A stretch of DNA of 64,000 nt from Nageia nagi. Its lineage: Eukaryota > Plantae > Pinophyta. The notes under the pieces are model-generated. The model was given only the letters and a program-made list of their open reading frames with translations. It had not been told where the DNA came from and ran no database searches. Both the position numbers and the translations under genes were made by a program. Every line of letters starts with the position of its first letter. Positions within the stretch are counted from its first letter, which is position 1. Below are positions 3,466 to 45,040 of the stretch, in pieces. Location of the stretch: contig JBITNC010000001.1 in NCBI GenBank assembly GCA_050084985.1, positions 167,338,001 to 167,402,000 on the forward strand, read 5' to 3'.

Positions 3466-3469
3466 ATAA

Positions 3470-5609: not shown

Positions 5610-5610
<1 letters not shown>

Positions 5611-5652
<42 letters not shown>
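5611..5652. repeat. (TA)21 microsatellite
   Basis: Perfect TA run. Confidence 0.99.
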
Positions 5653-5655
<3 letters not shown>

Positions 5656-6259
5656 TTGTAGTAGTTATACACCATTCCTCCTAGTAACATTCAAACTCAA
5701 CAAAGTTCCTTTAGGTTACTTTAGGAAAATAGCCAATACATTAAACAACATTTTCAACCTATTAATAACACTAATTAATATAAAATAGTAGACATCAATA
5801 TTATCACATCTCTTTCAGATTGTTAATGTTTCACTTTCATTCTTAAATTCTACATATGAACCAACTACAAAATTTATCAGATAAGTAACTCAAATCATTT
5901 TTTTTATTAATGGTAAATTGAATTAATAAAAAAAGAGATTATCAAGCTCCCTACACCTTTACATCATATATCATCTTAAAATAAAAAATATTTTCTGTCA
6001 TTTCATATCCTAAATTACAAAGAGTGCAACACCACAAAATGGCCCAACATATCAAAGTGAAGCATACATTCACCTCTAATATATCACATATTTTCAGTAT
6101 GCCTAACCTCTGCATTTTAGATATAGCTTACCAACACACACTTGCTAACCCTTGATATAAACAATATAAAAAAAACCATCTATGGACTTGCCTATTCAAG
6201 ATGCTACCTTATATCCATTTAAGCATGAAAAGCTAAGCATATACTTAGGAAACATTATG

Positions 6260-7600: not shown

Positions 7601-7811
7601 AAGATTCTTCCTTAGATAGAACTAAAAATATCTATCATTTCATATGGGAAGCATCTTTGATTATCTTACTACAAGATCAAGGATGGATCTTAGCTCAATC
7701 ACCCAATGAGATCATGTGAATGTAGGATGCAAATGATTCTCAATGAGAGTCTTAATGTGATGCAATTTAATCTTTTAATTATGAAGGTAATCAAAACAAA
7801 AGTATGAATAA

Positions 7812-12043: not shown

Positions 12044-15000
12044 TTTTTTTAAAGGGTAAATTTATTAATGGTTTTTTTATATAGGGACCCAAAAACTATT
12101 TTTACAAAATATCATTAGATATTTAGTATAATAGCCATATGTGACAAAAAAGACATTCCCATACTAACCAAATCATCTTTATACAATAGAAGCATGGGTA
12201 TCAAAAAAAATACAATCACCAAGATTTCCATCTAGATCTAGTACTCTTATAGGGAAATTTAAATTTAAGTCACTATTTTTTGCTAGTTGATACTTCAAAC
12301 ATGCTTAAGTCCAAGAATAACCATAACACATCCATTTCATCTTTTGTGAATTTATCTTGCTTTTGAACCAAAAAATAAAAGGGGATATCATATTTTGAAT
12401 TAGCTATGATGATTTTCCATTTCTTGCCTCCCATCTTTTGCATAGCATACAAATAATTGAAAAGGGATCTTGTAACCTTCATAATAGTTTTAACTACCAT
12501 CCACTACTTACTTTTTTTAAAATACACTTTCTTAAAAAAAATATAATTTACCTTTTTATCTTTTGCTTTGAGGGGTAATTTATACTATGAAACCCAACCA
12601 ACTCTGATCACTCCTCAATGTACAACTTGGTAGATTCCTCATACACAAAAGAAATCTATCATCTATTACTACTTTCACCTTTGAAGATCACCTCCTCCCA
12701 TTGAGAGGTAGATAAGTGTGTGAAATTGAGCCACTCCTAGGACCAAAGGACTCATAAGAGGACATGTTGATAAAAATAGGGATGAGGATGGTGGAGGGGA
12801 GGGAGAAAGAGAAGGTGGGGATTGAATAATTGAGAGGGTGATTCTCCAAAGGAGGAGTGTTCAAAGAAATTTTCCACAAGGGAGCAACCAATTTAGCACC
12901 TCTTATTACAAAATTGATTATAATTTTAATCAAAACCTTATGGATAAGAGTACAACCCCTATTTATCTTAATGTAGATATCAAGAGAATGAAACATAAAG
13001 TAAGGCAAGTTGACTAAAATCTACCTCAAAAATGAGATAATAAGACAAAGTGATAATCATTAATTTTTTTTGTACCAACCCTACAAGATGAATAATATGA
13101 TAAGTGAATTATCCACTTCATCCTAAGGATAGGTAATTGAATCAATGAGGTAGATAAACCTCCTTTTACTCAAAACTGGCTACCTAGGGTCTAGAAAGAT
13201 GCATACATCATCTAGGGAAGAAAAAATCTCTAAATAGTATATAAGACTAACATTTTGCATCCTCATATCCACATTAATGAGCCCTAAATTTATAAGAAAA
13301 CTAGGTTCCATCTACAATCACCCTCTTCTCATCTCAAGACTCATCAACTTGATGATACCACTCTTGGTTGTGATCATCCAAGGCTTCAACAAACCCCTTA
13401 ATACTTTCATTACACATGATTCCCCAAATGATTGGATTCTCTTTGAAAACATATCCATTTTCAAGCTTGAGCCTCTTCTACCCTATAATTATGATTGAGA
13501 AAATATAAATAGCCAAATGGAATGGAAATTTTCCATCTTTGTAGTAAACTTCCTCCACCAACTTGCATTTCCAATCATGTCCATCCACATGATCTTCCAA
13601 TTGATGATTCTTAATAATTAGATCCATGCCAACATTGTGATGGATTTGTGATATATTATTCCCCATACATTGCTCCATGCAAGTGATGTATTAAGTTTTT
13701 TCCCCATATGATACCATGATCAACACATCCTCCCTACTATTAGAGCTTTGATGAGGGGGATTCTGATTGAACACATCCCAATTTTCATTAATCATTAACA
13801 AAATATTATAGACCAATCTTTATGGTGTTATAGTTTTATCTTCAAACATTTGATTGTTTATTTCCTTCCATATTCTCCAAAGAATATGTGAAAGATAAAA
13901 GGACCACCATTTCTTTTTGGATCTATCAACCATGGTTGGCTGGCATTTGATAATGACTTTAGACACCAAGATGCATAACTCATAAATTTTATCACCTAGA
14001 ATTTCATTTAAAACATCCTTGGCATAGGGGTAGTGCATACATAAGTGATCCATAATTTCTTCAACATTTATGCACAAGGAACATTGATTTGGGAAAATCA
14101 TACCTTTTCTCCTCAAGTTATCAAGTGTTAGAATCTAGTTTAAAAAAAACAACTATAAGAATTAGAATACTTTAAGAGTTACTTCTTTGATGAAAATATT
14201 CTTTACATGGAAGGTTCCATCAGATGGAAAATTAAGAGAATCATAATCAAATTTGAATGAGTAATATCATTCCTTTCTAAGCTTTCAAATTGGTACATCA
14301 CTTATTCCATCATCAAGAAGAATTGAAATAAGTTTGAGCCTATCATTTATAACATTAACCACCAATTGGAGATTTTGATTAGGGTTTGTATTTATATCTA
14401 AGATATTTTCCCATTTTGATATTGAATATAGCTACAAATCATAAGATCAATGGATTTCATACCTGAACGAGCCAAATCCTTCATTCCTCCTTCTTGGAAA
14501 AGAGGTTGATTACTGACCCATTCATCATAATAAAAATGAATCAATTTTCCATCCCACATTCTCTAAGAAGAGTTATCCCAAAGCATTGTTTTGACTTTCA
14601 AAAAACCTTTCTAAAAGGAGTATCCACCCAAAATTAGGCCAATATTAAGGAAATTAGTATCAAGTTCCATATATTTTTCTTGGAAAATTTTAACCTAATT
14701 TCTATTTTCATTATAGCTAAGCTTCCAAGCCAATTTACCTTTGAAAGATATATCAAATTGTTTAATATTTTAAAGACCCAAATTGTAATCCTTTTTTGGT
14801 TTACATCATTTTTTCCAATTGAAATATTATCATTATTTTCTTGTCCTCCATACTAATCTGAAGAAATTTATTACAAATTTGATCAATTTTATGATAAAGT
14901 CAAATAGGAATTTGAAAAACTAATGCACAATAGATCAAGACACTTTGTAAGAATATTTTCACCAAGAGGCACTTACTAGGAAGACTCAAAGTAAACCTTT

Positions 15001-15965
15001 TCCATTTGGAAATTTTCTTTTTAAATCTCTCTAATATATTTAACCATAAGAGTTTTTATGATGAACCAATGATTATTGGAATTCCAAGATAAATATTTGG
15101 GAGGTATTCAATATGACAATTAAAAATTCTATAATTCTTCTCTATCTAGTTATTAGACTATGAGTAAAAAATAACTTAATTTTTTCAAAGTTAATTTTTT
15201 TTTAAAATGCACCTTCATAATCTTTAATACTTTTTAAAAAGTTTCTAGCTTCCACCATATATGCCTTTCCCATAATAATTGTGTCATCGAAAAATTGACT
15301 ATGGGTGATTGTAGTAGGGGCTAAGGATGGGATAAGTCCCTTGATCTTTTTTATGGATTTTTAGTTTCCAAATCTTCTACCAAGCACTTTGACCATAATG
15401 ATAAATATATATGGGTAGATAGGGTCACCTTGCTCATATCTAAGTTTTAAAAGAAGCTAGATGCTTCCCCATTAATTAACAAAAAAAGGATGTTGTAGAC
15501 ACACATAGTTGGATCTAAGACCTCCAAATTGGGGAGAAGCCATATTTTATATAAAATTTATCCAATAATTCCTAGTTTACACGATCATAGGATTTTTGCA
15601 TATCCAATTTTAGGAAAGAAAACATCTTCAATACTAGTCTATAATAAGTGGAGAACCTCATGGAACTTAATAATACCATTAACAATTTTTTTCCCTTGCA
15701 TAAAACCATCTTGCTTAGAAGATATGACTTTGTGTAAAAGTATTTTGAGTCTATTAGTAAGAATTTTAGCAATAATTATGTAAACAACATTGCAAAAGCT
15801 AATTGGATGAATGTTTTGAACTCCTTCTCGTCACTAATCTTAGGGATAAACACCATAAATATAACATTTCAAGATTTAAGGATTTGGATAACATATGCAA
15901 GTCATGAACAACCAGGAACACATCCTTCCCCATCCAAGATTATAAAATTTCTTCTACAAAATTAA
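12044..15965 (-). mobile_element. 5'-truncated, degenerate L1-type LINE (RT, zf-RVT, partial RNase H, extra 3' ORF, A-tail)
   Basis: FIPK..PISFCNVVYIIIAKILTNRLK, KLDMQKSYDRVN, QGDPIYPYIFIIMV, THSQFFDDTII and CSLCINVEEIMDHL (13820-14116). RNase H start at ~13600-13750. A-run at 12044-12050 on the minus strand. Confidence 0.92.
12273..13486 (-). pseudogene. Extra ORF (ORF3-like) downstream of LINE ORF2, plant-transposon accessory-type domain
   Basis: Broken reading gives IG*KRLKLE..PIIWGIM..GFVEALDDHN..GVIVDGT..YP*DEV..YHFVLLSHF..VNLPYFMFHSL..LIHKVLIKII, then a low-complexity tail. The same motif order recurs at 36780-37354. Confidence 0.65.
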
Positions 15966-16185
15966 ATTCTTCCCCATAATGTGTCAAAACTAAGGCCTAC
16001 TCCTTAGTAACCATATTTCTAATTCATATATTTTGCAACAAATATATTCATGAGCACACTATACCAAAAAAGACCTATTATGAAAATATTTTTATGATGA
16101 TATTTTACAACTTATAATCTTCATAAAATACTATATTACAATGATTTAAAATCATCATCAAAATTTTATCAAGGTTAAAAAAGTA

Positions 16186-17489: not shown

Positions 17490-18675
17490 TGTGACACCTC
17501 CCTTGCATTATTGTACTTAATTCTAGAATCCAATGGATTCCACCTTTGTATTATATTTAATTATTTAATGTTGCTTTAAGTTAGTACTTGGGATAGTAGT
17601 CTTAATGGGTCATTGGACCCCATTGTGAGCCCCAAGGGGGATGTCTCCCTCCCAAATGTAGATTAGAGTGTTTTAATGTACTTGGAGATCCCAATACATG
17701 ATTGTGGGAATCCCAAGGTCTATCTAGCATTTAATGGATGGATGAGCACTTAATGGATCCAACATTAAGATTAGTAGCACTTGTACACATGCACTAGAGA
17801 TTTCTATACCCTCACATTGTCCCATGACACCCACATTTCCTCCTAGATGTCCATGCATGCCTCCTAGATCCATGCATACATTTTGGACCCCAATGGGGAA
17901 AGAGGGAGGCTTAGATACCTACATTGGGCCTACATTGGCTCCTAAGTGCTAATATTTGGATATGGGGGGATTGGATGATTATATTGAGGTGAGATCTAGA
18001 TATAGGAAATCTATATTAGCCCTTGGAATCTTATTATTAGATATACATAATTATTATGATCACTCATACTATCTAGAGGATATAAAACTTAGTGCAATGC
18101 TAAGCAAGATCCTTAGGTGTGAAATTGAGGAGGATTAGGAGGCTAAGAGATCTTATTAATCTATAGCTTTGGTGTAGCATTCTAGCCCATTTGATGGTAT
18201 TTAGAGGTTGAGCTTCTACCTTCAATGGTTTTTAGGGTTTGAGGAGGGTTCCTTCAATGGAGAGGATTCAAATTCTAAGGGAGCAAGATTATCCTGCACA
18301 TTACTAGTCTATTTAGCAATGAGAGACACACATTATGCCCTAGTTGGATCCGTGGAGGCTAACATCTAGCTCTAGGGTATTGATATTGCATCATTGATCA
18401 TTATTTATCTTCTATATAGCTATTAGGCATTTAGATCTTAGTATTTGTCTGATGTATGCTTTCATATTACAATCTTGTGATGTGTTTCCTATTTCATACA
18501 TACTGTAGCTAGATGTTGGTATTATGAGGTTATAATTACTTATATCTTGCACTCTAACCCTAATGTTGGAAAATTTAGGTATTGAGTACATGTTCATGCC
18601 CTTCTAAGCTAGGTGTGGGTGTTGGCTTGAAGGAATTTGCTTATTTTTTTGAGAAATTGCATTAGTATTTTTACA
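17490..18675 (+). repeat. 5' LTR of host gypsy element
   Basis: Colinear with 31626-32531, has TG...CA ends and is followed by the PBS. Confidence 0.88.
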
Positions 18676-21448: not shown

Positions 21449-21450
21449 AT

Positions 21451-21637
21451 CTCCCCCTTTGGAATTGTTGGCAACACCATTAACACCACTTGATCAGATA
21501 CCAAATTCAGGACACTTCTCCCCCTTTGTCAACAATAACAAAGGGCATTTACAGACTCCCCCTGAGTCCATACACGACATTCTCAGGAAACTAGGAGTAG
21601 ACACAGAATATAGGAAAGAAAAATAAGTACTCCCCCT
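21451..21637 (-). other. Four AGGGGGAG polypurine-tract octamers
   Basis: CTCCCCCT on the plus strand at 21451, 21518, 21556 and 21630. The proximal copy is separated from the LTR by 2 nt. Confidence 0.95.
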
Positions 21638-21660
21638 GAGAAGGCAACGTTCAGAGCTAG

Positions 21661-24600: not shown

Positions 24601-26736
24601 GTTGCCGTCATTTATTTTGACAGACCCTTTGCCAATAATTTGTGCGCCATCATTATTTCCAAATCTAACTGACCCACCTTCATATTCTTGTAGTTTTTGG
24701 AATTTCTTTTTGTCACCTGTCATGTGACTTGAGCATCCGCTGTCTAATATCCACGGGGAAGGTTTGTCTTGAGCTTTCAATGCAGTTTGAACAATTAAAG
24801 ACTCTTTGTCCTTTTTGAGTTTCCCCTTTTCTTTCCAGACTTGTTTTACTTTTGTTTCAGCTCCTTGTTTCTTATTACACTTTTCTTCTTTCTGTGGAAG
24901 ACCGCGCTGAACTTGTTTATTCTGTCTTACGAAAGGAAATTGTCTTCGTGAGAAGAACCTCATGCCATAGTCAACTTTGCAGAATCTGGCAATGTGTCCA
25001 TATTTGCGACAGTTGTAACACTCAACAGGATACTCCATTAATGGACCGAATGCATTCCTAGTAACAAAGGTCCTTGGTTTAATATTATATTTACATTCAG
25101 AAATTTTGTGCCCATATGCATTGCATTTGAAACAGTATCCATTGAAGGAATGGATATAACTATTACGTTGATGAGTTCTTCTTTGTCCTGCATAGGGTCT
25201 TCTTCTGGACTGTACTTGAGTGAAGCCATCATTCTTCAGTTCTGGGCTACCTTCCCTTTTCTTGGCTTCTTTTGTGTTTTCCTCTTTTATGTTACTGGAA
25301 GATTGTCCTTGTTCATATCCCAGACCAGATTTATCCGAAAACATTCTTTGACTGTTGATGATTTCGCTAAGTTTGGTCGACCTTCCTTCTAGATATTCAA
25401 AGGAACTGATTTTCTTGGTTACTTCCTCCAGTTGTACACGTAGCCCAGTTATTTCTTCTTCGAGCTTACTACAATTCTTAACTTTCTCGAGAAGCTGTTC
25501 CTCCAAACTCTCATTTATCCTCTTGGATTCTTCGACTTCTATTTTTAGGTTTTCTACAGTAGTACTTGCATCATCACACCTTCTTGAGAGTATCTTATTT
25601 TTCTTCACTTCTTTATTCAATTCTTTCAATGCTGTCATTAGTTCTTCTTCAATATCAATCTCAATTTCACAGTCATCTTCTTCATCTGTCTCTTCCTTCT
25701 TATGTTTTTGGTCACTTTGATTATTTACATTCAGTTTTTCTTCAAATGCCATAAACAATGACTCATTATATTCCTTTTCTGATTCGTTACTAGAATCATC
25801 ATTAGTGGAGTCTTCATTTCTAGATAAGAGGCTCTGTCTATTTGACTTTCTATTTTGAGCCTGAGATTTCATCTTGCGACTTTTCTCAAAATACGATTCT
25901 TGATCATCTTTATCAGTTTTTCTATATGGACATTTTGAGATAAAGTGACCAATACCACCACAATTAAAACATTTAAAAGGCAGCTTGCCTTTATACTTAC
26001 CTTTTCCTCTTTTTAGCTTTCTAATGAAGTTTGCTTCTGCTTCATCCGATTGTTCCTCATCGTCAGAATCTTCTCTGGCGTTGTTACTGCTGCTGGTCTT
26101 AAACGCTGCTTCCTTTTCTGAATGTTTTGTTTTTCCAATCCTCATTTCATAAGCAGTTAGCGATCCATGCAATTCATCCATGCTAAAAGTTTTCAAATCT
26201 TTTGCTTCTTCAATAGCAGACACTTTTGAATCAAAACGAGAAGTGAGAGATCGCAGTACCTTTTTCACGATGATATGATCTTCAATCTCTTCTCCAAGGC
26301 CTCTGATCGCATTAGTAATTTCATTTACTCTTAGCATGTAGGCTTCAATGGTTTCATCTTCATTCATCTTTAGACCTTCGAATTGAGCTCTATGTGTTTG
26401 AAGTTTTGCTTCCTTGACTTTGTCATCTCCCTCGTGAATGCTTTTCAATTTACTCCATATTTCTTTAGCTGACTTGCATGCCATAACTTTTACCAGTTCG
26501 CTGTCCACAAGACCACACATTAGAGCGTTTCGTGCTTTGGCATCATATTCAAATGCCTTTCTTTCTGCTTCATCTGATGGACCAGTAGGAGGAGGAGTGT
26601 AACCCCTTTTAACGGCATCCCAAGTACCAAAACCCAATGCACTGAGATAAGTCTTCATCCGAATTTTCCAGAACCCATAATTGGTTCCATCAAAGAGTGG
26701 TGCCTTGTTAGATGAGAAACCTTCTCCGCTTGCCAT
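21661..26736 (-). CDS. Ty1/copia gag-pol polyprotein, 1691 aa (extended Gag with 3 CCHC knuckles and coiled coil, PR, INT, RT, RNase H)
   Basis: [15 protein letters not shown]; [28 protein letters not shown] and [14 protein letters not shown]; [13 protein letters not shown]; WHKRLGH; LRSDRGGEF; [14 protein letters not shown]; [11 protein letters not shown]; YVDDIIFG; DADWAG; ADIFTKPL. Confidence 0.99.
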
Positions 26737-26780
26737 AGTGTCACTGTCCGGATCTCCTTAGCTGTTATAGCTTACTTAGG

Positions 26781-26798
26781 AACCTGGCTCTGATACCA
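26781..26798 (-). other. Primer-binding site for initiator tRNA-Met
   Basis: Minus strand reads TGGTATCAGAGCCAGGTT, 2 nt from the 5' LTR end. Confidence 0.97.
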
Positions 26799-26800
26799 AT

Positions 26801-29084
26801 TGTTGTTCTTCGAGTGACACTGAGAGGGGGGGGGTGAATCAGTGTATATAAAAATTATCACTATCCAATCTTCTTTAATAATGACAAATTAAAAGCTGGA
26901 GAAAATGAGCAAGCACACCAGTACATCACACAACACCAGATGTAACGAGGTTCACCAGTTTGGCTACATCCCCGAAAATGACTGCTTGGACACCAATCCA
27001 AATCCAGCCATTAAAGAAAGCTTACAGATTCACAGCACCAACTGTGAAGGGTAGCACCAACTACCACTTTGAGAATAGCAGCACCTACTGCTTGGAGCAC
27101 CAACTCCAGCTCTCAAATCCACTCCAGCTCTCAAATCCACAGCACCAACTGTGAAGGGTAGCACCAACTACCACTTTAGAATTAGCAGCACCAACTGCTT
27201 GGAGCACCAACTCCAGCTATCAAGCACCAACTTGATAGAACATTCAAATGGAGAAAAGATTCTGTTCTAGAAGACCCTCAATGGTCTAGCTCTAATGCTC
27301 ACTTCATACACTTCGGATATTTCACTTTACACACAGCACTTGCTTTCACTCACTTCTCTGCTCACCACATTCGTGCGATTACCTGCATTTTCATGCTTTA
27401 CTTTTCGCACTTCTTTTCACACACTCTGCACACACTTCGCACACACTTCACTCCCTTCTCTTCTCATCACATACTCCACACACACTTTGCCTCAATTCAC
27501 CCTTTTCATCCCACACCTTTTACACCTAGAAACCAACTCTTATATCTGCATGTCCCACTACTTGCTTCACTTATTCCTTTAGCTGTAAACTCTCAGCTAC
27601 TACACTCTCCTCGAGCTGTGTACTCATTACTCCCTGTCTCCTCGAGCTGTGCAATCTCAACTGCCGCTTTTCTCGAGCTGTGCACTCATAACTTCCTTTC
27701 TCCTCGAACTGTGCAATCATAACTTGCATTGTCCTCCAGCTGTGCAATCACAGCTACTTCTCTCCTCGAGTTGTGCACTCATTACTTCTTGCCATGTCCA
27801 CACTGTTCACATTGCAGCTCTCTGCTCCTTTTCTTACATCCGTTTTTCACATTATTCCTGTACTTAACCGTTACGCATCAATAACACTCCAGGAAACTGT
27901 TCCTACCATTATACGTTATCAACAGAATCCTTGTTTGTAACTGACGAACACTTTCATTTCTCAAACAGAGTTGTTTAGACAGGTATACTTCTTTCTCCAT
28001 GGATTTCAGCTAATTCCGGACTCTTTTATTCTTCATTATGGTATTTCTTACGATTCCGGACTCTTCTCTCCTTCATAATGGTATTTCTGATTATTCCGGA
28101 CTCTTTCCTAGCTTACCGGATGTTTTCTGTATACATCGTGATGTCATCATCCTCCGGACTCCGGAAATAGAGTATAACGCTTTTCGCATGACGTCATCAT
28201 TTCTGGACTTTTATCTTCAGACGTGTATCTCCGGATTTTTATCTCCGGATGTTTATCTCCGGATCTTGACCTCCGGACTTTTGTCTCCGGACCTTTATCT
28301 CCGGACCTTTATCTCCGGACCTTTGAACACTTGCACCATGATGTCATCACTTCCGGACTCTGGAAACAGAGTATAACTCTTTCCTTATGATGTCATCATT
28401 TCCGGACTTTTATCTTCAGACGTGTATCTCCGGATTTTTATCTCCGGACGTTTATCTCCGGATCTTGACCTCCGGACTTTTGTCTCCGGACCTTTATCTC
28501 CGGACCTTTATCTCCGGACCTTTGAACACTTGCACCATGATGTCATCATTTCCGGACTTTTACCTCCGGACTCTTTTATCACTCTTTGCTGACCTCATTT
28601 CTTCCGGACGCCGGTTGTATTCACAAATGTGAGCATCGTTCTCCTGGTGACGTCATCTTTTGCTTCCGGAATGTTTTCCTCTCTGGCTCCGGCTCTTTGA
28701 TCATTCCTTGCTGACCTCATCACTTCCGGATCCCGGTTCTAAGTGAAAGCCCGAAATCGCTGACGTCATCTCGGTCAATCCTCCGGAACCCGACCAATCA
28801 CACTTCTCTTCCGGAACTTAGTCAAACTTCCAGAACCCGATCACTCTTTACTTCCGGAACACAGTTAAACCTCCGGAACCCGATCAAATAGTCTCTCTTC
28901 ACTTCCGGAACTTAGTCAAACTTCCAGAACCCGATCACTCTTTACTTCCGGAACACAGTTAAACCTCCGGAACCCGATCAAATAGTCTCTCTTCACTTCC
29001 GGAACTTAGTTAATCCTCCGGAACCCGATCAATACCTTGTTGACAACAATTACAATCATACTTCTCTATCACACATACTCAACA
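26801..29084 (-). repeat. 5' LTR of intact copia (2284 bp)
   Basis: Copy of 19165-21448, adjacent to the PBS. Confidence 0.99.
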
Positions 29085-31270: not shown

Positions 31271-31625
31271 TAGCTATGTAGAAAAGGATCCACCTATTTT
31301 TACTCACATATGATTTACTTGAGGCTTTTGTAGGTACAATGCCAAAAATTTCTATATGCATGCACTCCCATATGTTTTTGAGAAAAATAATGTGGCACTT
31401 GATGAGGAGTGATGGAAGCAACATATCAAAAAAGTTTCATGCATTGTTGACATATGATGATGTAATGTTAGCATTTCATGTAGGACCTTCATCATGAAGG
31501 GCATATATTGAAGTTGCATTTCACTCTTGTAGATTGCAATCAATAAGGCTAAAGGATTCTTGGAGGATAATATGCTATAACATTCTAACATTACTTAAGG
31601 CCAAGTAATTTGAGAGGGAAGGAAT

Positions 31626-32531
31626 TGTGACATCCCCCTTACATTATTGTACTTAATTATGGAATCCAATAGATTCCACCTTTGTATTATATTTAATTAT
31701 TTAATTATGCTTTAAATTAATACTTGGGATATACAACTTAATGGGTCATTGGACCCCACTATGATCCCCAAGTGAGATGTCTCCCTCTCAAGTGTAAATT
31801 AGAGTATTTTAATGTAATTAGAGATCCTAATACATGATTGTGGGAATTCTAAAGTCTATTTAGCACTTAATGGATTTATGAGTACTTAATGGCACCAAAA
31901 TTGAGATTTGGAGCACTTATACATATGTGCTAGCCTTGGGGAGACTTCTAGACCCCCATGTTGGCCTATGACACCCACACATACTACCTAGACCCATGCA
32001 TGCATTCCTGGATCCATGTGGGATATGAGGTAGTCTCAAATATCCATGTTGGTCCTGGACTAACACCTAGGTACCAATGTTATCATATGAGGGAATTAGG
32101 TGATGATATTGAGATGAGATCCATATCTAAGAAAGCTATATTAGCCTTTAGAGTCTTATTGTTGGATATACATAATTATTATTATCACTCATATAATCTA
32201 GAGGATAGAATACTTAGTGTAATGCTAAGCAAGACCCCTAGGTGCAACATCTAGGAGGATTAACAAGTTTGAGGGATCCTATTAGTCTATAGATTTAGTG
32301 TAGCACCCTCACCCATCAAATGGTCTTATGGGGTTTGGCTTTTACTTTCAATGGTTTCTAGAGTTTGACAAGGGCTCCTTTGATGGAGAGGATTTAGATT
32401 TTGATCATTATTTATCTTCTATATAGTCATTGGGAATTTGGATCTTAGTATTTATCTTGTGTATGCTTTCATATTGTAACATTGTGGTGTATTTCTTATT
32501 TCTTGCATGTTATGGCTAGATGTTGGCATTA
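31626..32531 (+). repeat. Truncated 3' LTR of host gypsy element
   Basis: Starts TGTGACATCC right after the PPT. Similarity to the 5' LTR stops ~150 bp before that LTR's end. Confidence 0.85.
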
Positions 32532-32599
32532 CTGCATTCTTGAGGCTTAATTTGGATGCCCTAGGTAAGACATTGGAGCATACTTGTGTATATTTGATT

Positions 32600-33680
32600 A
32601 AATTATACTAAAATTTCATTTATGTTTTTACATATTTATAAAGTCTTTTCATTCACCTATATGCTTGACATGGCCAAGAAGGACAACCATACATGTATAT
32701 TATTCTTGTGTAGGTGCAATACGTGTTCAAAATTTCAATGTAAGTGTAATATGATAAAAATTATTAGTGGAATTCAATTTATGATATCCTTATTTCACTA
32801 TTCCTACATGGATACATGCATATAATATAATAACAAATGCAAAATTGTTTGGATTAATACCCACATATATCATTTATTTAAATAGTTTGAAGGATTCCTT
32901 GCTATAACCACTTATTTCATACCTTACAATCATTACAATTGATGAAATTATTTGTTCATAAAACATATTTTCATATAAAACCCTTATCATCTTAATGCTT
33001 CCAAATTTTATGTACATGTCTATTAGGGATATTAGCACAATTGTAAAATCTAGATTAATGCCCATATATTACATTTATTCAAATAGTTTGACATCTTCCT
33101 TGCTACAACCATTCCTTGTATACCATGCAATCATTACAATCCATGCAATTATTTATTCATAACACATCTTTTCAAATAAAACCCTTTTTATCTTAATACT
33201 CCCATATTTTTCATATATGTCTATTAGGGTTATTATCATAATTACATGCAACTAAAACTACATCTAATCATCATTCAATGATTTGAAGTATTGATAACCT
33301 TTTTTCACTAGACATGCATTGCCATAAAAAGATATTACATTAATAAATGTAACATCATCTAGATTAAAGTGCATACATTCCATTTGTTTAAATAGTTTGA
33401 TGGATTCATTGCTACAATAATTCCTTGCATACCTTGCATTCATTGTAGTCCACGAAATTATTTATTCATGACGCATGTTGTCAAGAAAAACCCTTACTGT
33501 ATTAATGCTCTCACATTTTGCATACATGTCTATTAGGGTTGTTATCATAATTGTATATTAAAGAAACATACATATAATATTCATTCATGGATTTGAAGCA
33601 TTGATATCCCTCTTTCACTAGATCTATATAGATATATGTAGATAATATAATAATAAATGTAATATCATTTGGAATGATAC
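32600..33680 (-). pseudogene. Tandemly repeated PLS-PPR fragments (S-P2-L2 module)
   Basis: ORF 32874-33065 SLIDMYIKFGSIKMIRVLYENM..IISSIVMIVRYEISGYSKESFKLF. The marker TCTATTAGGG recurs at 33019, 33220 and 33529. YTCMVVLLGH at ~32670. Confidence 0.85.
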
Positions 33681-34750: not shown

Positions 34751-35849
34751 TATATATTTTTGAGCATATGTGAATGAAAAATGATTTTAGCATTTCAAAA
34801 CATAGAAGAGAAGAAGGTTATGAAGAACATGTAGTCAAAAAAGGTATTAAGCCAAATTATCAGTATCACAAAAAGAGGGGTAGCCTTTGTGAATGTAAGG
34901 AAAAACATTCATAAAGGTTTTCCAATATTTTTAGGGTACTAATTGATCTTTAAGATTGAATAGCTTGCAAAGATAAAACCTATTTATCACTTCTAATAGC
35001 TTTTGTTATGATATTAAAGATGTCTTCCATGTAAGGTGCAAGTTTTTTCATAGTAGATTAAAGAAATTAAAATAAGGTATATAAATGTAGATTACCATAT
35101 GCAAGTATATGAAGATAATGTTATTTAATAAATAACATGCATATTTTAGCTCCTTTCAATTTCATTCTCAAAGATTTTCCATAAAATTTCATGCCCTATT
35201 TTAAAGATGCAAAAGTTGCACATACAACCTAAATGCCAAATATGCATATGAGATCATATAACCTTCCCATTGTATATTGCTTGGAAAATCACCTCAATCT
35301 ATGGAGAATCATTGGATATGCAAAGAGGCCTAGTCATTCTATAATGTAAGCATGTTGAAATGTATAATATAAGATGTAAAATATCCATATGAGTAGATGT
35401 CATGAATATAGTGTAGTGATTTTTTCAATTATGTAAATGTACCATGAATATTGATTGGTATCATCCCACATGTTGTATTACATCAAAACCATACTATTTT
35501 AAGATGATTTTAATATATTGTAGTGGTGTTGTTAAATATGTGAATGTGACCTAAATTGTTTTTGATTAATTTTAATTAGTACATTAATTTTTTAAAAGTA
35601 AGGTATGCTTTAAGTCTTACAAGGTATACATCATGAGTTTAAAACTTATTTATTTATATTCTAATTTTTATTATCTAGATTATATTTGTTGGTATTCCCA
35701 TGATAATATTCTTTGAGAACATTTATATATGATTTAGAAATATCCTCATTTGTACCAATCCTAACATAACAATGATCATAACCATTATACTTTCATGATT
35801 TACTTTAGAAATTATGTCATTAAATTTATGATTCATTATCTTATTTGAC

Positions 35850-37730
35850 CTATTTTTTGTTATTAATCATAGAGGAGTTTGGCCCTCAATAAATTAGATT
35901 GTTAGCTAATATGTATAAATAAAATTAGTAGCATATATTCCTATTATGTTTACTACTGACATAGTCCATAACAAAAATGATAACACCAAAATAAGTCTTA
36001 GAACATAAAACACTAAAACACATCCCAAAACATATATCCTAGTTATTATTTTTTCCCTTACCCTTTAGTGATTCACCTTTTTCTTCCTCATCAACTTGTA
36101 TTAAGAATTTCATAGTGGCCCTAATGTGAATAGCTAGATCATCTCCCAACATTATTCATACAAGTCATAATAGTTTTCAATTTTTGAGAAAGTTCCAGCA
36201 TCAACTTGTAGTTAATTCTAACTATGTCAACCAAAGTCTTCCACACTTTTTCTACTAACTATTCTTCTTTTCCAAAATCAGCACTTGGTGGAGTGGGAAT
36301 TTAATTTACTTCCACCTTAGCTACATCTTGGGGATTTTACAACTCTTCAAAATATGTAGATTGTAATGCCTCCTCTTCATTTTCCCCTTTAACTACCTCC
36401 TCCTCTACCTCTTGCACACATGCATCATCTTCCTCCTTTGAAATCTTTTTACTATTTTTCTTATTCTTGGAAATAGGTTCTACCTAGTCCAACTCCTCTT
36501 CATCATATTCATATGTATAGTCAACAATCTTCTTCCTATTCCCTTTATTAATTTGAGTAGATGTTTGAAATGATTTATATTATCCCTTACCTTATAGAAA
36601 GGGATATAGTCTTTCCCATCCTTTTATTCATAAGTTTATTCAATCAACATTTCTTTCCAATTTACCATTTCATTCTCTTTCTTCCCTATGCCAAGAAACA
36701 ACTATATTCAAGATACAAGAAGCCCACTCTTCTTTGGGACTCAACCTAATTTTGTACAATGTTCCTTCTCTACCATAAAATCAAATACCTTATTAATTAT
36801 TCCCTAGTGAAAAGGTAGATTTTTGTATGCCATTTTAACCCCATTGATTGAATTCTTCAAGTCATGGAATAAAAAATCCAAGAAATTACCAATTCATTAT
36901 GTTGAATCAAATTTATAATTTTGACCTAATACCTAAAAATATGTTGGTATTTCCCATCCAAGGTAATGTACTTCATTACTACTATAGCTAATATATTCCA
37001 AGGCTTGGGTCAAGACTCTTTACTAATCCTTGACTCCAACTAACAAAAGTTCTCTTCCCCTTACAAGAATTTTGCTAGCTATTTTACCAATTTCATTTTC
37101 ATTTGGTGGATAAGTTATCCCATATTCATAATTCCTCTAACTTAAGCTAAAAGGTGAGGTGAAAAGGTAAAAAATAACCCCTCCAACTCCACTTGTCCTT
37201 GTTTCTAAGAGTTACAAACCTTCCTCATTATCCATTCATCAAATGAATTAAATTTCATGAAGAATTGAAATAGCTTTGAGGGTTCAAATAGAGGGGTTAT
37301 TTCCCATTTAATTGCTAACATAGTTGGTTCAATTTGCACTAGCTCACTACCTATTCTAGCTAATTGTGAAGGAGAATTATAAGGAAGCTTATTTTTCCAA
37401 TCTATCTTACTTATCTTAAGAGGTATACTACCATTGCCTTGACCACCTAGAGTTCATCCCTCATACCTCCACTTGCAATTGGCATGAGAAATATTTCACC
37501 TCATAGTCTTCTCAACCATGCATTATAATGAATACAATGAGTTTTCCATTCATGCCATGACTTTTTATTATTAACGTTTTCTTAATCTCATTAATTGTTA
37601 TTTGAATGGGGTCTAGATCGAATTGATACTATTGGAGTCTTATTCAATATTTCACTCCTCTCATACATAGCAATAATAGCATCTTCTTTAGTTTTCTTTA
37701 TTTTCTTATTTTAAGTTGTTATTCTATAAC
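35850..37730 (-). mobile_element. 3' end of a second degenerate LINE: RNase H remnant, extra ORF, 3' tail
   Basis: IQITINEIKK..KSW (EGDS.IIINAI..W-like RNase H) at ~37550-37620. From 37354: IGSELVQIEP..FDEWIMRKVCNS*KQGQVELEG..ES*PKPWNILAIVVMKYITLDGKY..NFLDFLFHDLKNS..PFH*GIINKVF, then an E/K-rich tail. The 3' end GGGCC..TTAATAACAAAAAA resembles the tail of the first LINE. Confidence 0.65.
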
Positions 37731-40700
37731 AAGTTAACTTTAAGGGGCAAATATAGTACACACCATACTCCAAAACAGATAAAAAAGATGTAAACTAGGC
37801 ATGAGAAATTCTAGAGTTTGGTATAATTATGTGAAGATAAGATCTAGATAATTGGAATGAAATTCATTCAATAAGTAAATATTAGGCCACCATAAACACA
37901 CAAGATTTGGGTTAGGTTTAAGGATGATAGGAATCCCAATATTTAAGAAAAATATTTGTAAATTCTAAGGTTTTAGTACAAAATATTTTATTCATGAACC
38001 AAAATAAAATCTAAATTTTTTGAAAAATAAAAAAAAACATTAGGTTCACTAAAAAATTATGTAAAATAAAATGATTTTATAATATTTAATATATATAAAT
38101 AAATTATGTTATCTACTGATGATAAATAGAAATTGACAAAGAGAAATAGAATGAAAATATGATGTAAAACAATTAACTAGGGTACACATGATATCTAAGA
38201 AAAATCACAATTACTAAGAATACAAAATCTATATTTAACATGGAAAAATATGAAAAATAATATTTGTACACCTATTTCAAATGAATCTAACTATTTGATA
38301 ATTATCAACAAGCATCTCCTAAGGATAAATTTAATGATTATTTTTTTTTTTTTTTTAATCTTGGATTTTGTAGAGGTTAGGATCAACCTGTCATGGTTCT
38401 CCCCCAAATTTTCTAATCCTAAAAGTTTTATGACTTATAATATGCTTGAAATATGGACCTATTATGAACATAGACACTAACTTAATATTTTAAATTACTA
38501 TGTGATGATCTTGGTAGATGACTTGATTAATGTGGGATGATTATGTTGGATATCATGCTTGTTGTATGATGGAATTATGATCCATTATTTTACATAAGCA
38601 TATATGACTATTATGCCTTAAGAACATAGGTATTGTTGATTTCATATGATTTTGCAGGCATTCATTGGAAAGGATCATGATGGTCATTGGTTCAAAAGTA
38701 TTATCCATCATTAAGATAGTCTTCTATATCATTTCATCTTCATTCATTTTTTAGTACATATTTCGTGAGAAGTATTATTTTAGCATACATGAAATAATAT
38801 TAAGTTCATTAATAAAACTAAATTTTTATTCCACCAAATTGAAACATGGAACTCTATAAACTATCTTGTCATCACACCATTACATATTGCACAAGGAAAA
38901 GAGGCATTATGGAAATTGTTTGGTACATTATAAATTATAAGGTATTGTATTTCAATACATGTTTTAGCATAATACATGAGGGTTTAAGTGCATGACCAAA
39001 CTTAAAGCATAAGGCCAAATTTTATATCATTGGTATTACATTCATAACAACACCTTGAGACTATATGATTAAATTGCATGGGAGCATTATGGAATCTTGT
39101 ATTTGTATCCAAGATTAAAATCTTTTTATCGACATACTTGTTTTTAGCATATGATCAAATTTGATTATTAACACTCTATTTCATAATGAGCATAAATAGA
39201 TCAATAAATTACACTAACATGGGATTACATAAAGATCACAAGAATTACATGTGCATATAATCTTGTATCCTTGCACTTGCAAGAAGGGAAAAAAATATCC
39301 TTATTTTGTAAACATTGTTTACAAAATAAAATAGTTAATGACATAGTTGATTCCATGTCTACATTCATGAAGAAAAATGTAATCCCATTGCATGGTTAAA
39401 ATAAATATCACCATGGGAGATTAGGGATTTAGGAGCCCTCATACAAACCATTCTAGAGGCTTCCATGAGGTGCCAATCTATGTACATATGACAATGATGG
39501 ATGACTATGATGAATGGATGTCAAGTCTTTTCTAAAATAACATAGGGCTTTTAGGAGCGTATCAATGCAGCTCCACCTGGTGTTAATATACAACTAGGAT
39601 ATCTGAAGTTGAATCCAAATTTAATTATGGCATAGGGCATGGTAGAAATCATAAAATAAGATATATTGGGGGTTATTTAATGTATTTTTCATAATAAAAT
39701 GTTGTAGGAGAAACCCTAGACATACAATGGGGAAACAAGTTTGAGTACTAAATTATAATAAAGAATGGTGGCACAAGCAAATAGGGGTTGTAGGGATATT
39801 GCACTGTGATTCATCATGACTACATGGAACCCATTTTTAGATGATATCATTAAAAATTTAGGCCACAAACTAATCATATTCTATAATGTTTAGATGAATA
39901 TCATGGCAATTTCATTAAATGTTATTTGTAGGTTTCCTATTTGGGTGAATTCATTCACCATTGGTTTAAATTTTGATTTGATGGAGTTTGTGTTAAATAG
40001 GAATGTGTTGTGGTTCCTTAGACATATTGATGTTGTATAAGGAGCCATAGCTAACCATAACTAAATAAAAATATATTTTGACCTTATTTTAAGCTTCTTT
40101 TTAGTAATCCTTTCCTTCCTACTCCTTAGGGTTTGGTATTCTTGGCATAATGCATTGTAGAAATTTGAAATCAAGTTATTTTATAAGAGGATGAAACATT
40201 GACTTATTTTCAAATATGTTGTTTTTACTACACATTATAAATTTGTAATGCTAAAGGGTAGAATCTATTCAAATATTATGAATGTCCTAGGTAAATCCCT
40301 AGTTTGAATGTTGCAAATTTACAACTTGTTTGAATGTCTTTGGAAACAAATTATTCCTAAAGGTATAGATACAATTGTACATAAGTTAAAGAAAATTTTG
40401 TACTATGGTTTCTTTCCATAAATTGTAAAAAGTATTTTTGGTTATAACTAGTTTTAAGATAGATTCATAAGGATAAATCCTTACCCTATAAGCTATGAAT
40501 TCTCTTTTTGATGGTTTGTATGCTAAGCTTTAATATGTTATGAAAAAATTATTATTCACTTTAATAGTATTCAAAAGGATACGAAGATCAACAATTTGCT
40601 AGGAATAAAAAAAGGGACTAAAACCCTAATATAGAATGCTATATCAAGAATGAATAATTTCAAAATGGGTAAAAATCCTCTAATATTTGTATGGAAAATA

Positions 40701-43700
40701 TAATAGTTGCTAAACTAGAATAATGAAAAAACTAAATAAAAAAAACTTAAGTAGTTTATATTATCACTAATGTCAATATATGGAGGATAATATGTAGAGA
40801 CATTTTCTTATCTATTCAATCACTAACTCTTTCCATGTAGCAATTAAAATATGTTGCATGGTTATTAAGAATGGGGAATTTGTATGGATTCAATAGGCCC
40901 AAAATTTAAAACAACTTTCGGTGTAGGTATAAAGGTGATATTGATAATGGATTACATATGTTGTTATAATCAAATATAGTTAGACTAAAATAACTAACAA
41001 ATAAATTACTTCAAGGAGATTCTAGAACACAACTCAACTCAAATAAAAGTTAAAAATATGAAATCCTAGTTCATGAACATATTAAATACAATTTACTATT
41101 GGAAACATACTAGTATTTAAACTAGTAAACAAAATAAATTGTTAATATGATTGTCATGTTACACACAATGAAATGAATTTCATATTGGATGATGTGATGT
41201 GGTGATTACATTTCATTAAGGTCTTTTTAAGTAGGATTTCTATTGCATTTTGCATGAATTGAGTTTGAGGAGTAATCTTTTTTGTAATATATTCTTATTA
41301 AGGTTGATGACTATCAATGTTAAGACATGGAGATATAATGTGAATAAATTTCCTATTATTTATATAAGAAGGATTATTGTAAGCATTATATACATTTCAT
41401 ACCATATAAAATATTAAATTGATTGCATCTCATATCACTTTCCATGATTAGGGGATGAGTCATCATTTTTTTGCATACCTCCAAGTGAAGGCAGGGTGAG
41501 TTCATAAAATTGCTTTATCATGACTATGTGTGTGAAGTGTTGTTTGAGCTTTGGGGGGATAGGATACCCTAACTTGACTTGGACCTATCCCATGGTTAGG
41601 AAGGCATCACTAATGTCATTGAGAATAACACTCACTCTTTAATTCAATTCAAGCATTTATTGTATTTTTATTATCTCATATTGTGGTCAATGAATCTATT
41701 TGATCATTCTTAATCATGTATTTTTCATAGTTTATATTGTTAAATAATATGGTTAATAATTTTATATGATCATGGGTTTTTGAGATATACTTACATATTA
41801 TTTTGGAGGATGGATGTCTCCAATTGGATTCTTGTGGGATACCTCTTGTAGGCTAATGACTATTCCCATAATGATATCACTAATATGTTTTTGTATAAGA
41901 ATGGAAAGTTTCAATCAGTTGACGTTAGTCAATCAAGTAGTACATGTTGATTATATTTTTATCCTTTATATGATTATGAGTACCAATATAGTATGGAAAA
42001 CTTGAAAACTAACACTATAGATATCTAGCATGTTATGTATACTTTTTTTATTAATAGGAATGAATTTAGGGGATAGGAAGACCAGTTTGGAAAAAGTTAA
42101 ATATTTTTTGTATTCTCTTTATTGTATGATTGTATAAAAAACCTTATTCATAATCTAAAAATGACTTGGTTGATACTCTTATCATATATTCTTGTAAATC
42201 ACTTTTCAAATTGATTATCCAGATAATGAATAATGCAATGTAAAAATATGGTTAAAACTTTATGTGTATGCATATCAAGTTAATTACTGGGAAATTAAAT
42301 GCTTGAAAGTTTTTGAAGATGAATGTTGCATTTAGTCATATATATATAAGCTGTTATCTATATCATGTTAAGCTCATAATGGTAAATTTTTGTAAGAAAG
42401 GGATGTTATAATCTTTTGCATGTAATTCCTTGGTTAAATTGGTTTTGTTATATAAATTTGTATGTGTAAAAGTAAACTTAAAAAAGTATGAGTTAGTGTT
42501 TTTTTTAAGAAAAATTGATGTTGTCAATCAAAATTTGTTAGAGTAAAATTTTCATTGTATAAACAACTACATATATAGAAAAGGAGACAATTTTGGTCAA
42601 GCAAAATAATTACCTCATACTATTACAAAACATAACATGATTCACATGGTTAAAAATTACTAAAATGTATGTTATCTTAGTTTGTAGAGCTAAGAAAACA
42701 TGGTTATAAATTGTATACATGATATTGTAAATAGGATTATTGTATGAATAAAAATTGGTGTATGGGGAAAATAACTTCAAACATTACCTATATACTTACA
42801 AGGCTGCAAATTCTAGAACAAACTAATAAGTGGAAAACTTTAGAATGAAATGTTTCATTCATGTTATATTGTTTAATTTGTTGAGCTTAAATATCATATG
42901 AAAAAAATAATTCATGATCAATAATATGTTGTATAATAATAAACTTGCATACTCATAAAATATATAATGTAAGTTAAGCAAGGAGGTTAATTGCAAAAAG
43001 GATTTTCATCCAAACTCACTAATGCATGGGGAAAATATGATACAATATTTGCATACTTATAAGTGTATAAAATTAAGTCATACATCATGGTATAAAACTT
43101 GGATCATACATATAAAATTATCCTTATGTTGGACTTTGTAATAAATCACATTTCTTCAATATTAACTTATACCTGGTAAGAACATTATAAATATACCAAA
43201 TGTTTAAACATGATATCATGTTATAGTAAAGGATCCTTAGTGGTCCACTTTAGTCCTTGGGATTTTTTCAATGGATGAAAAATGAGATAAATCTTATTCC
43301 TTGGTTACAATGTAAACTAAATGTTGATTCCTTTTGAATCTTTTGTACTTTATAGATGACTTCAACATCTTAAAGTGTTATGGATTTTCTATAATAATAA
43401 AATTTTATTATCATGCTTCAAAATGTTTTTTGGTATGAATATAATGGTTTGTTAGGATAAGTATTCTCCTCATACAACATCAATAATGATTAATCTCCTC
43501 CTCATATGTAGGTTAGTATCCAAAACCAAATTTAAAATGAAATAATTTCTTAAAACATATATAAAATATTTAAAACAAGGAATCCAAGGTTACATCAAGC
43601 CTAGAAACTAAAAATCGATGCTATTTTAAATTTTTAAGTATTGAAATTCTCTAAAATTAAGATTATGAGTGGTAATGTATGGATGAAATAGGAAATTTGG

Positions 43701-45040
43701 GGTTCCTATTTTTTTGTGGATTTTTCAAATCTAAAATTATGGAGGTTGTGAGATGATTCTAGGGTTTTGGTTCTAAGGTTCACTTGGTGCATTTTATCTT
43801 AGAACTTGATTTGTTGAAATAAAATATCCTCCAATTTGACATGCAAGTATTGTAATGTATTCCTTGATAAATAATCTACAAAATGAATATCTTGGTGAGC
43901 TTATGGGGGTTTTAGAATAATAGTTATGATGCTTGAAACATTATCTCCTTAATAAAGGGTTTGCAATGTGATCATAGGAAGCTTCATCATCATGAGTGTG
44001 AAGAGATTTATTTCCATGAGTAGCTTGATCATAAAGAGAATTGATAATTTGAAATCATTTTAAGAGCTCATTTTATACATTACAAAATAAAATAAGACAA
44101 TTAAAGGATTATCTAATCTTTATTTTGAAATTAGAACATTAATATTCCATCTAATTAATTAAATAATTTTAGATACCTAAATAAATGATTTTATATAAGT
44201 AAAAAATTGAATTTATGTGTCTACAAGATATTTATAATAATAGTAAAAAAATAAATGCTTCAAGTTCTCTAAAAGAAGAATTGTATGTCTTATGTAAGAA
44301 AAAGCTAAAGAATTAGTAGATGAATGATAAAACTAGAAATAATATACAAAACCATTTGATATGAATCACATACACAACCTAACATGGTGAGAACATATCT
44401 TCTAAAATCATATAATAAGATAACTATATCATAATATCTAATAATTAGTGGGAATGAAGATTAAACATATTAAGATGATAAAATAAAGGAGGGTAAAAAA
44501 TACTAGATCTTAAGAAGAAAGGGAAATAATTATCATAAAATATTTATAAAAACATTAGATAGGTGAAAGTAAGTTTTTTCACATAGATGAAGCTAAACAT
44601 ATTTATTCTAGACTATTCCAACTTTATAGAAAATGTTTTCTATGCCTTTTAAAATTTGAGTATGTAAGGTAGAATAATAATTAGTAAACCATATGATTGC
44701 ACAATGCAAATATCTAAATGTTTAATGGAAAATTTTTTTGTCACTTTTTTAATACCAAATGGTGCTTTCAAAAATTATTGTAGTAAATATTTGAGATGCA
44801 ATAACCCCAAAATACATGTGTAGAATGAGAAATGAGATATTCTAACCCCTTAGAAAATATAGTATGAAAATAGTTCAAGAAAAGGATTAAAATCTTGGTA
44901 AACTCTTTAAGGAAAAAAAGTAAAAACCTAAATTGAATTAAAAGTAAGATGTTGTAAAAGTAAAATCCTAAAAAAAATTAAATAAAAAAATATTATGGAT
45001 CCTTCCACCAAAGAATACATTAGAAGTAAATTTGATGAAC

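What the first reader, a model, noticed from the sequence alone, without database searches (positions are those of the whole stretch)
35850..37730. Independent, diverged second copy of the same RNase H - extra ORF - tail architecture
Seen: 22 kb away, a segment with little obvious DNA identity to the first LINE encodes the same motif series in the same order: IGSELVQIEP, NS*KQGQVELEG, PKPWNILAIVVMKYITLDGKY, NFLDFLFHDL, PFH*GII. It is preceded by an RNase H-like remnant and followed by a similar GGG.CC..TTAATA..AAAAAA tail. Both begin ATA-GG(G/T) where ATG-GG would be expected. Inference: conservation at protein rather than DNA level in two lineages argues for an old, selected LINE ORF3 rather than a one-off 3' transduction.
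Basis: partly seen in the sequence, partly recalled or inferred. Interest (0 to 1): 0.78.

Follow-up and report, generated by a model that had tools for sequence, protein, structure and literature searches.

The report
Retroposon carrying only a VANC-like gene
This stretch is a decayed copy of a real gymnosperm-type gene whose intact relatives sit alone in 1.6-1.7 kb poly(A)-tailed mobile units; its protein is predicted to fold like the transposon anti-silencing protein VANC21, so these units are likely enzyme-less retroposons that would help themselves or a partner LINE escape silencing.

Summary
The extra ORF is real and is present twice in the window (B 37354-36139, A 13486-~12960, both minus strand). 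A and B do not align directly (tblastx best E 1.9), but a profile of B's relatives finds both, and each is followed by the same type of tail. The claimed RNase H was found before neither copy. B's intact relatives (Ginkgo gene models; 5 distinct metagenome loci) are not ORF3s of truncated LINEs. Four of the 5 loci are 1.61-1.72 kb units with target-site duplications: about 250-305 bp leader, one ORF (394 aa in the two unbroken copies), a conserved ~50 bp tail and poly(A). Three share the same 5' end, and genomic contigs break there into unrelated flanks. Substitutions concentrate at third codon positions. Two AlphaFold models match only VANC21, the DNA-binding anti-silencing protein of VANDAL transposons (Z 7.8, next 2.3). 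Best reading: B is an old copy of a non-autonomous poly(A) retroposon that encodes only a VANC/PMD/Transposase_32-fold protein. A lies ~290 bp behind an L1 ORF2 and may be the parental LINE with the gene in cis (unresolved). Anti-silencing function is inferred from the fold only. I found no description of this in ten literature searches; Repbase and Dfam could not be searched.

The parts
36139..37354 (-). Decayed ORF of element B (about 405 codons, many stops, at least 2 frame breaks); start codon reads ATA
   Evidence: Six-frame translation; phmmer 70 hits, best E 7e-48; C-terminal half matches L001/L003 ORFs, 0 of 40 codon shuffles each
36770..37354 (-). N-terminal ~195-residue domain; relatives predicted to have the VANC21 (DUF1985)/PMD/Transposase_32-type fold
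   Evidence: HMM 4e-38; models of relatives P0004 and P0068 vs PDB: VANC21 Z 6.6 and 7.8
37355..37699 (-).
   Evidence: No RNase H signal above noise; length fits the 251-306 bp leaders of relatives; similarity to L005 leader weak, 8 of 300 shuffles, 1 of 15 pairs tested
35853..36138 (-). 3' UTR and tail (GGGCC..TTAATAA..A-run, 35885-35853)
37700..37713 (-). Candidate target-site duplication, 5' copy (12 of 14 with 35848-35835); weak
   Evidence: Reached by 4% of 150 random windows
35835..35848 (-). Candidate target-site duplication, 3' copy; weak
12960..13486 (-). Copy A: decayed, distantly related domain of the same family
   Evidence: long unresolved branch outside B's clade
12044..12110 (-). 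Tail of copy A
   Evidence: Aligns with L003 tail, 0 of 300 shuffles; L005 5 of 300; not L001, L004, L006 or B
13780..16000 (-). Decayed L1-type ORF2 (RT piece 15818-15672, zf-RVT 14263-14015) ending about 290 bp before copy A's ORF
   Evidence: Pfam zf-RVT E 7e-9, RVT_1 E 0.038; translation

Best explanation
Element B (about 37700-35853, minus strand) is likely a decayed copy of a non-autonomous poly(A) retroposon that carries one gene and no enzyme, is likely copied by the reverse transcriptase of a partner LINE, and encodes a protein predicted to fold like VANC21, which would bind the element's or partner's DNA and counter silencing. Shown: the ORF and its family; in relatives, the unit of leader + ORF + conserved tail + poly(A) between target-site duplications, a shared 5' end, and selection on the ORF. 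Predicted: the fold. Inferred: polymerase II transcription from a promoter in or at the leader; recognition of the conserved ~50 nt tail (a predicted hairpin) by an L1 ORF2p; target-primed insertion; sequence-specific DNA binding and anti-silencing activity (about 0.4 on its own). Origin (inferred, about 0.5): a separate transcript of an accessory ORF at the 3' end of an L1, as copy A may still show, became an independent family.
For: B is sister to P0005 inside a supported clade (98/92) with the ORFs of L001, L003, L004. TSDs: L001 14/14, L004 14/14 (15 bp exact), L005 12/14 (each 0 of 150 null windows), L003 11/14 (7%). 5' ends lie 302, 304, 306 and 251 bp before the ATG; L001, L003, L005 leaders are homologous from the first bases (0 of 300 shuffles) and the units are 1715, 1710, 1713 bp at 68-74% identity. 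In two genomic runs, listed contigs that run on before L003:2998-3001 (33 in X2, 11 in X14; 18 further rows not shown) continue into long unlike AT-rich sequence, agreement 0.51-0.70; 6134 contigs of X2 lie on the unit. Differences by codon position 38/21/115 (L001/L003), B vs L001 73/47/102; none in the leader. Last 60 bp 97-100% identical among L001, L003, L005 vs ~70% inside. No RT, RNase H or integrase Pfam domain in any of 70 relatives, although gene models fuse PPR, TIR and DUF659 neighbours. Fold: pLDDT 83.6 and 91.2; VANC21 top in both wide searches, Z 7.8, rmsd 4.0, 185 aligned, next Z 2.3 of 48,161 chains; weak Transposase_32 hits in 2 of 70 relatives and Atlas neighbours Transposase_32/ATHILA/PMD.
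Against: B's own TSD is weak (12/14 AT-rich, 4% null) and B's tail and leader do not align significantly with those of the relatives. Only 5 distinct loci, all from one close clade and probably one species, were seen; L004's leader is unlike the other three and L006 is cut inside the ORF. The partner LINE was not identified. Fold match is moderate (Z under 8, 8-10% identity, Foldseek E 0.16-0.91) and covers VANC21 residues 302-533 only; the same fold occurs in MAIN/MAIL1 and Athila proteins with other or unknown roles. No repeated target-like motif array was seen in four units, unlike VANDAL.
Confidence: 0.62

Rival explanations
1. The ORF is a true ORF3 of autonomous L1 elements, and B is a 5'-truncated L1 whose first 350 bp are the decayed end of ORF2/RNase H.
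For: Copy A lies in the same orientation about 290 bp after the C-terminal motifs of an L1 ORF2, with no long poly(A) between and no L1 continuation found behind its tail. By eye B's upstream frames hold RNase H-like words (motifs recalled, not from a call). The tail is far deeper in genomic contigs than the interior (137,045 vs about 1,000-13,500 in X2; summed contig depth, not copy number), so other elements share it.
Against: No RNase H signal; fixed 5' ends and fixed length in B's clade; 0 of 5 loci and 0 of 70 proteins linked to ORF2; leader shows no codon periodicity.
Confidence: 0.2
2. For copy A alone: a stand-alone unit inserted by chance at the 3' part of an older L1 in the same orientation, so that no L1 ever carried the ORF in cis.
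For: Distance from ORF2 end to ATA (~290 bp) equals the leader length of stand-alone units, and 13790-12044 is ~1.75 kb.
Against: No TSD around A (null 75-100%); no remainder of the L1 behind the tail; A's leader unlike all others.
Confidence: 0.45
3. The units are passive processed retrocopies of an mRNA from a host gene or from an LTR/Mutator element's accessory gene, made by L1 enzymes, not a self-propagating family.
For: Fixed 5' end, poly(A) and TSD also fit full-length retrocopies; Transposase_32/ATHILA-type ORFs are known from Athila LTR elements (PMC11728184 passages).
Against: Several subfamilies 26-45% apart keep length, an open ORF under selection and a near-invariant 3' tail, and are highly repeated, which points to selection on a retroposition signal.
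Confidence: 0.12
4. The element is as described, but the protein is not an anti-silencer; it is an oligomeric RNA/DNA chaperone or targeting factor for the partner LINE, as ORF1p is for HAL1/HeT-A.
For: C-terminal helical hairpin after a disordered linker; VANC and Athila domains are predicted to oligomerise by coiled coils (PMC13547354 passages).
Against: The only solved match is a DNA-bound VANC21; the other characterised family member, MAIL1/MAIN, also counters silencing (bioRxiv 2024.09.27.615353 passages).
Confidence: 0.35

Closest known systems
VANC21 / VANC (DUF1985) of VANDAL Mutator-like DNA transposons, PDB 9LNK/9LNJ
   Same: Predicted fold over 181-185 residues; accessory gene of a mobile element; conserved domain plus variable low-complexity region.
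   Different: 8-10% identity; carried by a poly(A) retroposon, not a DNA transposon; intronless; no DUF287 hit and no tandem target-motif arrays seen; VANC is described as dicot-specific (PMC13547354 passage), this family is gymnosperm-type.
Transposase_32 (PF20167) / ATHILA ORF1 (PF03078) / PMD (PF10536) accessory ORFs of plant LTR retrotransposons
   Same: Sub-threshold PF20167 hits in 2 of 70 relatives (20-22 bits vs cut-off 45); Atlas feature scores 0.85-0.90 and structure TM 0.71-0.79.
   Different: Below every family threshold; context is poly(A) plus TSD with no LTR, gag or pol inside the unit.
Protein-coding non-autonomous LINEs HAL1, HeT-A, Ag-Sponge
   Same: One ORF, no RT, poly(A) tail, dependence on a partner LINE (PMC5753468 and PMC5786205 passages).
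   Different: Those encode ORF1p; here the ORF has no ORF1 domain and, if copy A is the parent, derives from the 3' side of ORF2.
Plant L1 with archaeal-type RNase H (RVT_1 + zf-RVT + RVT_3)
   Same: Copy A has RT and zf-RVT; RVT_1+RVT_3 ORF2 is common in plants (PMC5203782 passage).
   Different: No RVT_3 in A or B; a further ORF follows ORF2 in A.

Membership tests
L1 LINE (autonomous, with ORF3) - element B | RT/endonuclease ORF2 upstream in cis | tested here: not met
   No Pfam hit in minus frames 37700-43800; no tblastx hit to A's ORF2 in 37355-45000; decay could hide it
L1 LINE (autonomous, with ORF3) - element B | RNase H domain before the extra ORF | tested here: inconclusive
   Score within noise (13 of 100 shuffles) with a working positive control; profile from viral proteins
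L1 LINE - element A | L1-type RT and zf-RVT | tested here: met
   zf-RVT E 7e-9; RVT_1 piece E 0.038
L1 LINE - element A | Extra ORF part of the same element (shared TSD or recurring junction) | tested here: inconclusive
   No TSD either way; no second copy of the junction available
Non-autonomous non-LTR retroposon | Poly(A) tail and variable TSD | tested here: met
   Poly(A) in 5 of 5 related loci; TSD clear in 3, weaker in 1, not found in 1; weak in B
Non-autonomous non-LTR retroposon | No RT or endonuclease in the unit; repeated; defined ends | tested here: met
   (relatives)
Non-autonomous non-LTR retroposon | 3' end shared with an autonomous LINE | tested here: inconclusive
   A's tail resembles L003's and the tail is over-represented in contigs; partner not retrieved
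tRNA/7SL/5S SINE | Small-RNA-derived head, non-coding | tested here: not met
   No tRNA or Rfam match in 5 loci; 394-aa open ORF in L001 and L003
HAL1-type half-L1 | Encoded protein is L1 ORF1p | tested here: not met
   No ORF1-type Pfam domain in 70 relatives or the L003 ORF; fold matches VANC21
VANC (DUF1985) | DUF1985 sequence match | tested here: not met
   No DUF1985 hit at E 0.01 in 70 relatives
VANC (DUF1985) | Fold | tested here: met
   Z 7.8 vs next 2.3; predicted model of a relative, moderate Z
VANC (DUF1985) | Sequence-specific DNA binding and demethylation of its element | not testable with these tools
   Needs DAP-seq/EMSA and methylome assays
Transposase_32 (PF20167) | Pfam gathering score 45 | tested here: not met
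   Best 21.9 bits
LTR retrotransposon accessory ORF | Lies between LTRs with gag/pol | tested here: not met
   Units bounded by TSD and poly(A); L005 lies within gypsy-like sequence but with its own TSD; distant clades of the family not examined

The most novel reading that the evidence does not exclude
Gymnosperm L1s acquired a third gene, 3' of ORF2, of the VANC anti-silencing fold; its separate transcript escaped as a family of 1.7 kb enzyme-less retroposons whose only product is a sequence-specific anti-silencer acting in trans. This would be a helper-parasite pair in which the non-autonomous element pays for the reverse transcriptase with protection from DNA methylation, and would put VANC-type anti-silencing in non-LTR elements and far earlier than dicots.
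Probability: 0.25. Interest if true: 0.88.

Novelty: new variant of a known kind. Interest (0 to 1): 0.7.

Why it matters
VANC proteins are the model case of transposon-encoded, sequence-specific anti-silencing and are described from dicot DNA transposons; related folds are known from LTR elements and host MAIN/MAIL1. A poly(A) retroposon whose only gene has this fold would extend it to non-LTR elements, give a type of coding non-autonomous LINE that does not carry ORF1, and offer a testable route by which retroelements stay active in giant, heavily methylated gymnosperm genomes. Intact 394-aa copies exist (L001, L003), so binding and demethylation can be assayed. Many Ginkgo 'genes' are copies of this ORF, which matters for annotation.

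Tried and rejected
Direct tblastx/blastn A vs B: nothing. Pfam on A, B and upstream frames: no family for the ORF, no RVT_3. Word-based homologue search with B: 0 of 3 candidates; with A's ORF2 end: 0 of 144, so no plant L1 RNase H profile could be built; 'longer' search gave 3 proteins, none fused to RT or RNase H, weak evidence. PDB sequence search of B's upstream frame: 2 chance rows. Viral and prokaryote collections: no relative or tail. Foldseek vs viral structures: no match at E 0.001. RNA: no RNA holder listed on record; in two raw RNA runs (about 6% and 2% read) only 1 and 27 reads lay, nearly all on the shared tail, which neither shows nor excludes expression. Profile of the C-terminal helices did not hit A or B; A's C-terminal region matched none of 7 relatives clearly (best 1 of 40). 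No tandem motif arrays in four units. Earlier-finding look-ups returned nothing. No complex prediction was sent.

Full report
CONTEXT. The window is AT-rich, repeat-filled plant-like DNA with an intact copia element at 19165-29084. No whole genome is held.

OBSERVATION. B's main frame read with X at stops found 70 relatives among 1.84 billion representatives (best E 7e-48). Of 20 looked up, 8 are Ginkgo gene models, 1 is a Taxus protein and 11 are unnamed or 'hypothetical' records. A profile of 34 of them (chosen for covering the domain) hits B at 4e-38 and A in two collinear pieces (4e-4, 5e-3; reversed-window control 0.61); frameshift-aware, A scores 51.7 with 0 of 100 shuffles as high; hhalign gives 92.7%. 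So A and B are homologous but distant: in a tree of 35 rows B is sister to P0005 inside a supported clade (98/92) with the Ginkgo-type ORFs, and A is a long unresolved branch outside. The relatives start with ATG-G where A and B read ATA-GG, and B carries a G>A/C>T excess. The tail pattern occurs exactly at 35885 and 12090 (post hoc).

RNASE H. Not found. Pfam is silent. A profile of 80 archaeal-type RNase H proteins from viral contigs detects a decayed RNase H at 4705-4365 (56.0; 0 of 100 shuffles) but scores the regions before B and A at noise (13 and 18 of 100). In A only ~290 bp separate the last ORF2 motifs from the ATA, too little for a whole domain.

WHAT THE RELATIVES ARE. One metagenome scan gave 6 loci of 355 candidate stretches; L001 and L002 are the same insertion, leaving 5. 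All 5 have the ORF, ~190-230 bp of 3' UTR, a conserved tail and poly(A). Target-site duplications: L001 14/14, L004 14/14, L005 12/14 (0 of 150 null windows each), L003 11/14 (7%); none convincing for L006, which is cut inside the ORF. The 5' copies end 302, 251, 306 and 304 bp before the ATG. L001, L003 and L005 have homologous leaders from the first bases and lengths 1715, 1710, 1713 bp at 68-74% identity; L004 (1610 bp) has a different leader. Laid on L003, genomic contigs of coded organism A cover exactly the unit (bins 2985-4755 about 1,000-137,000 vs 14-131 in flanks; summed depth, not copy number), and the listed contigs that run on before 2998-3001 (33 in X2, 11 in X14; 18 rows not shown) continue into long, mutually unlike AT-rich sequence. 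Random 5' truncation of a longer L1 would give scattered ends and a shared upstream sequence; this is a fixed end. No L1 ORF2 trace was found upstream in any locus or in 7.6 kb before B, and none of 70 proteins carries RT, RNase H or integrase domains. No tRNA or Rfam head. The ORF is open for 394 codons in L001 and L003, broken in L004 and L005; change is concentrated at third positions (38/21/115), also for B vs L001 (73/47/102), but not in the leader. The last 60 bp are 97-100% identical among L001, L003 and L005 (80% for L004) and can fold into a hairpin (no shuffle control for the fold). B fits this plan: ~345 bp leader, ~405 codons, ~290 bp UTR, tail, and a weak candidate TSD (12/14, 4% null); its leader and tail are too decayed to align with the relatives.

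THE PROTEIN. No Pfam family passes; 2 of 70 relatives touch Transposase_32 below threshold, and the Atlas lists Transposase_32, ATHILA and PMD clusters as neighbours (leads only). AlphaFold models of two relatives from different clades are confident (pLDDT 83.6, 91.2). Foldseek gives no match at E 0.001, but VANC21-DNA is the only row with TM 0.40-0.45. The exhaustive aligner ranks VANC21 first for both models: Z 6.6, 181 aligned (other rows match only the C-terminal helices) and Z 7.8, rmsd 4.0, 185 aligned, next best 2.3 among 48,161 chains. Behind the domain lie a charged disordered linker and a helical hairpin. From passages read: VANC binds short DNA motifs and causes loss of methylation across its transposon (PMC5735166); VANC/DUF1985 resembles the PMD of MAIN/MAIL1, which counter Polycomb silencing, and PMD-A is retrotransposon-encoded (bioRxiv 10.1101/2024.09.27.615353); VANC is called dicot-specific, and VANC and Athila domains are predicted to oligomerise by coiled coils (PMC13547354); Transposase_32 occurs in an Athila extra ORF (PMC11728184).

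MECHANISM. Shown: family, unit structure in relatives, selection. Predicted: fold. Inferred: the unit is transcribed from its own 5' end, translated into a VANC-fold DNA-binding protein, and reverse-transcribed at its poly(A)/tail by an L1 enzyme in trans. The simplest reason for selection to keep a 394-aa ORF in an enzyme-less element is that the protein helps it be transcribed, i.e. anti-silencing of itself or its partner (about 0.4); a chaperone/targeting role is the main rival. No VANDAL-like motif arrays were seen. Copy A is the only link to an L1: same strand, ~290 bp behind ORF2, tail resembling L003's, no L1 remainder behind it. It may be an L1 with the gene in cis (about 0.55) or a unit inserted there (about 0.45); one decayed locus cannot decide.

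KNOWN OR NEW. Coding non-autonomous LINEs exist (HAL1, HeT-A, Ag-Sponge) but encode ORF1p (PMC5753468, PMC5786205 passages). A cross-eukaryote L1 survey mentions ORF0 and reverse ORFs in the passages I saw, not a 3' VANC-like ORF (PMC5203782). Ten full-text searches (listings only, apart from the seven papers named, of which I saw passages and no supplements) showed no description of such an element; the library lacks most subscription papers, the VANC21 structure paper was not found, and Repbase/Dfam could not be searched, so an entry there is possible. RNase H motif wording used for by-eye comparison is recalled, not from a call.

VERDICT. Real, old, selected gene; not behind an RNase H; in B's clade carried by a stand-alone ~1.7 kb poly(A) retroposon; VANC-like by predicted fold. 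New variant of a known kind; interest 0.70.

Noticed in passing
window 19165-29084 (-): Young intact copia element: 1698-codon gag-pol ORF (21661-26757), LTRs 2284 bp at 99.87% identity, with internal ~200 bp and ~90 bp tandem repeats in the LTRs.
   Followed up: no
window 4705-4365 (-), pol remains to ~3000: Decayed gypsy-type pol with an archaeal-type RNase H; used as positive control.
   Followed up: partly
window 350-1400 (-): Next-best score of the ORF-domain profile (23.7; 95th percentile 20.0); possibly a third, very decayed piece, probably noise.
   Followed up: no
window 12500-12100 (-): ORF-like stretch between copy A's domain/linker and its tail that matches none of 7 relatives' C-termini; may be a lineage-specific C-terminal domain.
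   Followed up: partly
L003:3000-3034 and 4650-4707: Both termini are several- to ~40-fold deeper in genomic contigs than the interior, so other families (shorter derivatives or the partner LINE) share both ends.
   Followed up: partly
L001/L002; L005: The units are inserted into other elements: an RTE-like LINE (L001/L002) and a gypsy gag/protease region (L005) (read from translations).
   Followed up: no
P0003, P0006, P0008, P0012, P0026, P0027, P0088: Gene models (P0003, P0006, P0008, P0026, P0088 named as Ginkgo) fuse this ORF to PPR, TIR, DUF659 or other coding sequence, or hold two copies; probably annotation artefacts, possibly exaptation.
   Followed up: no
window 16641-18524 and 31625-33668: Two related ~78% blocks in permuted order around the copia insertion, with tandem subrepeats; likely LTRs of an older element.
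   Followed up: no
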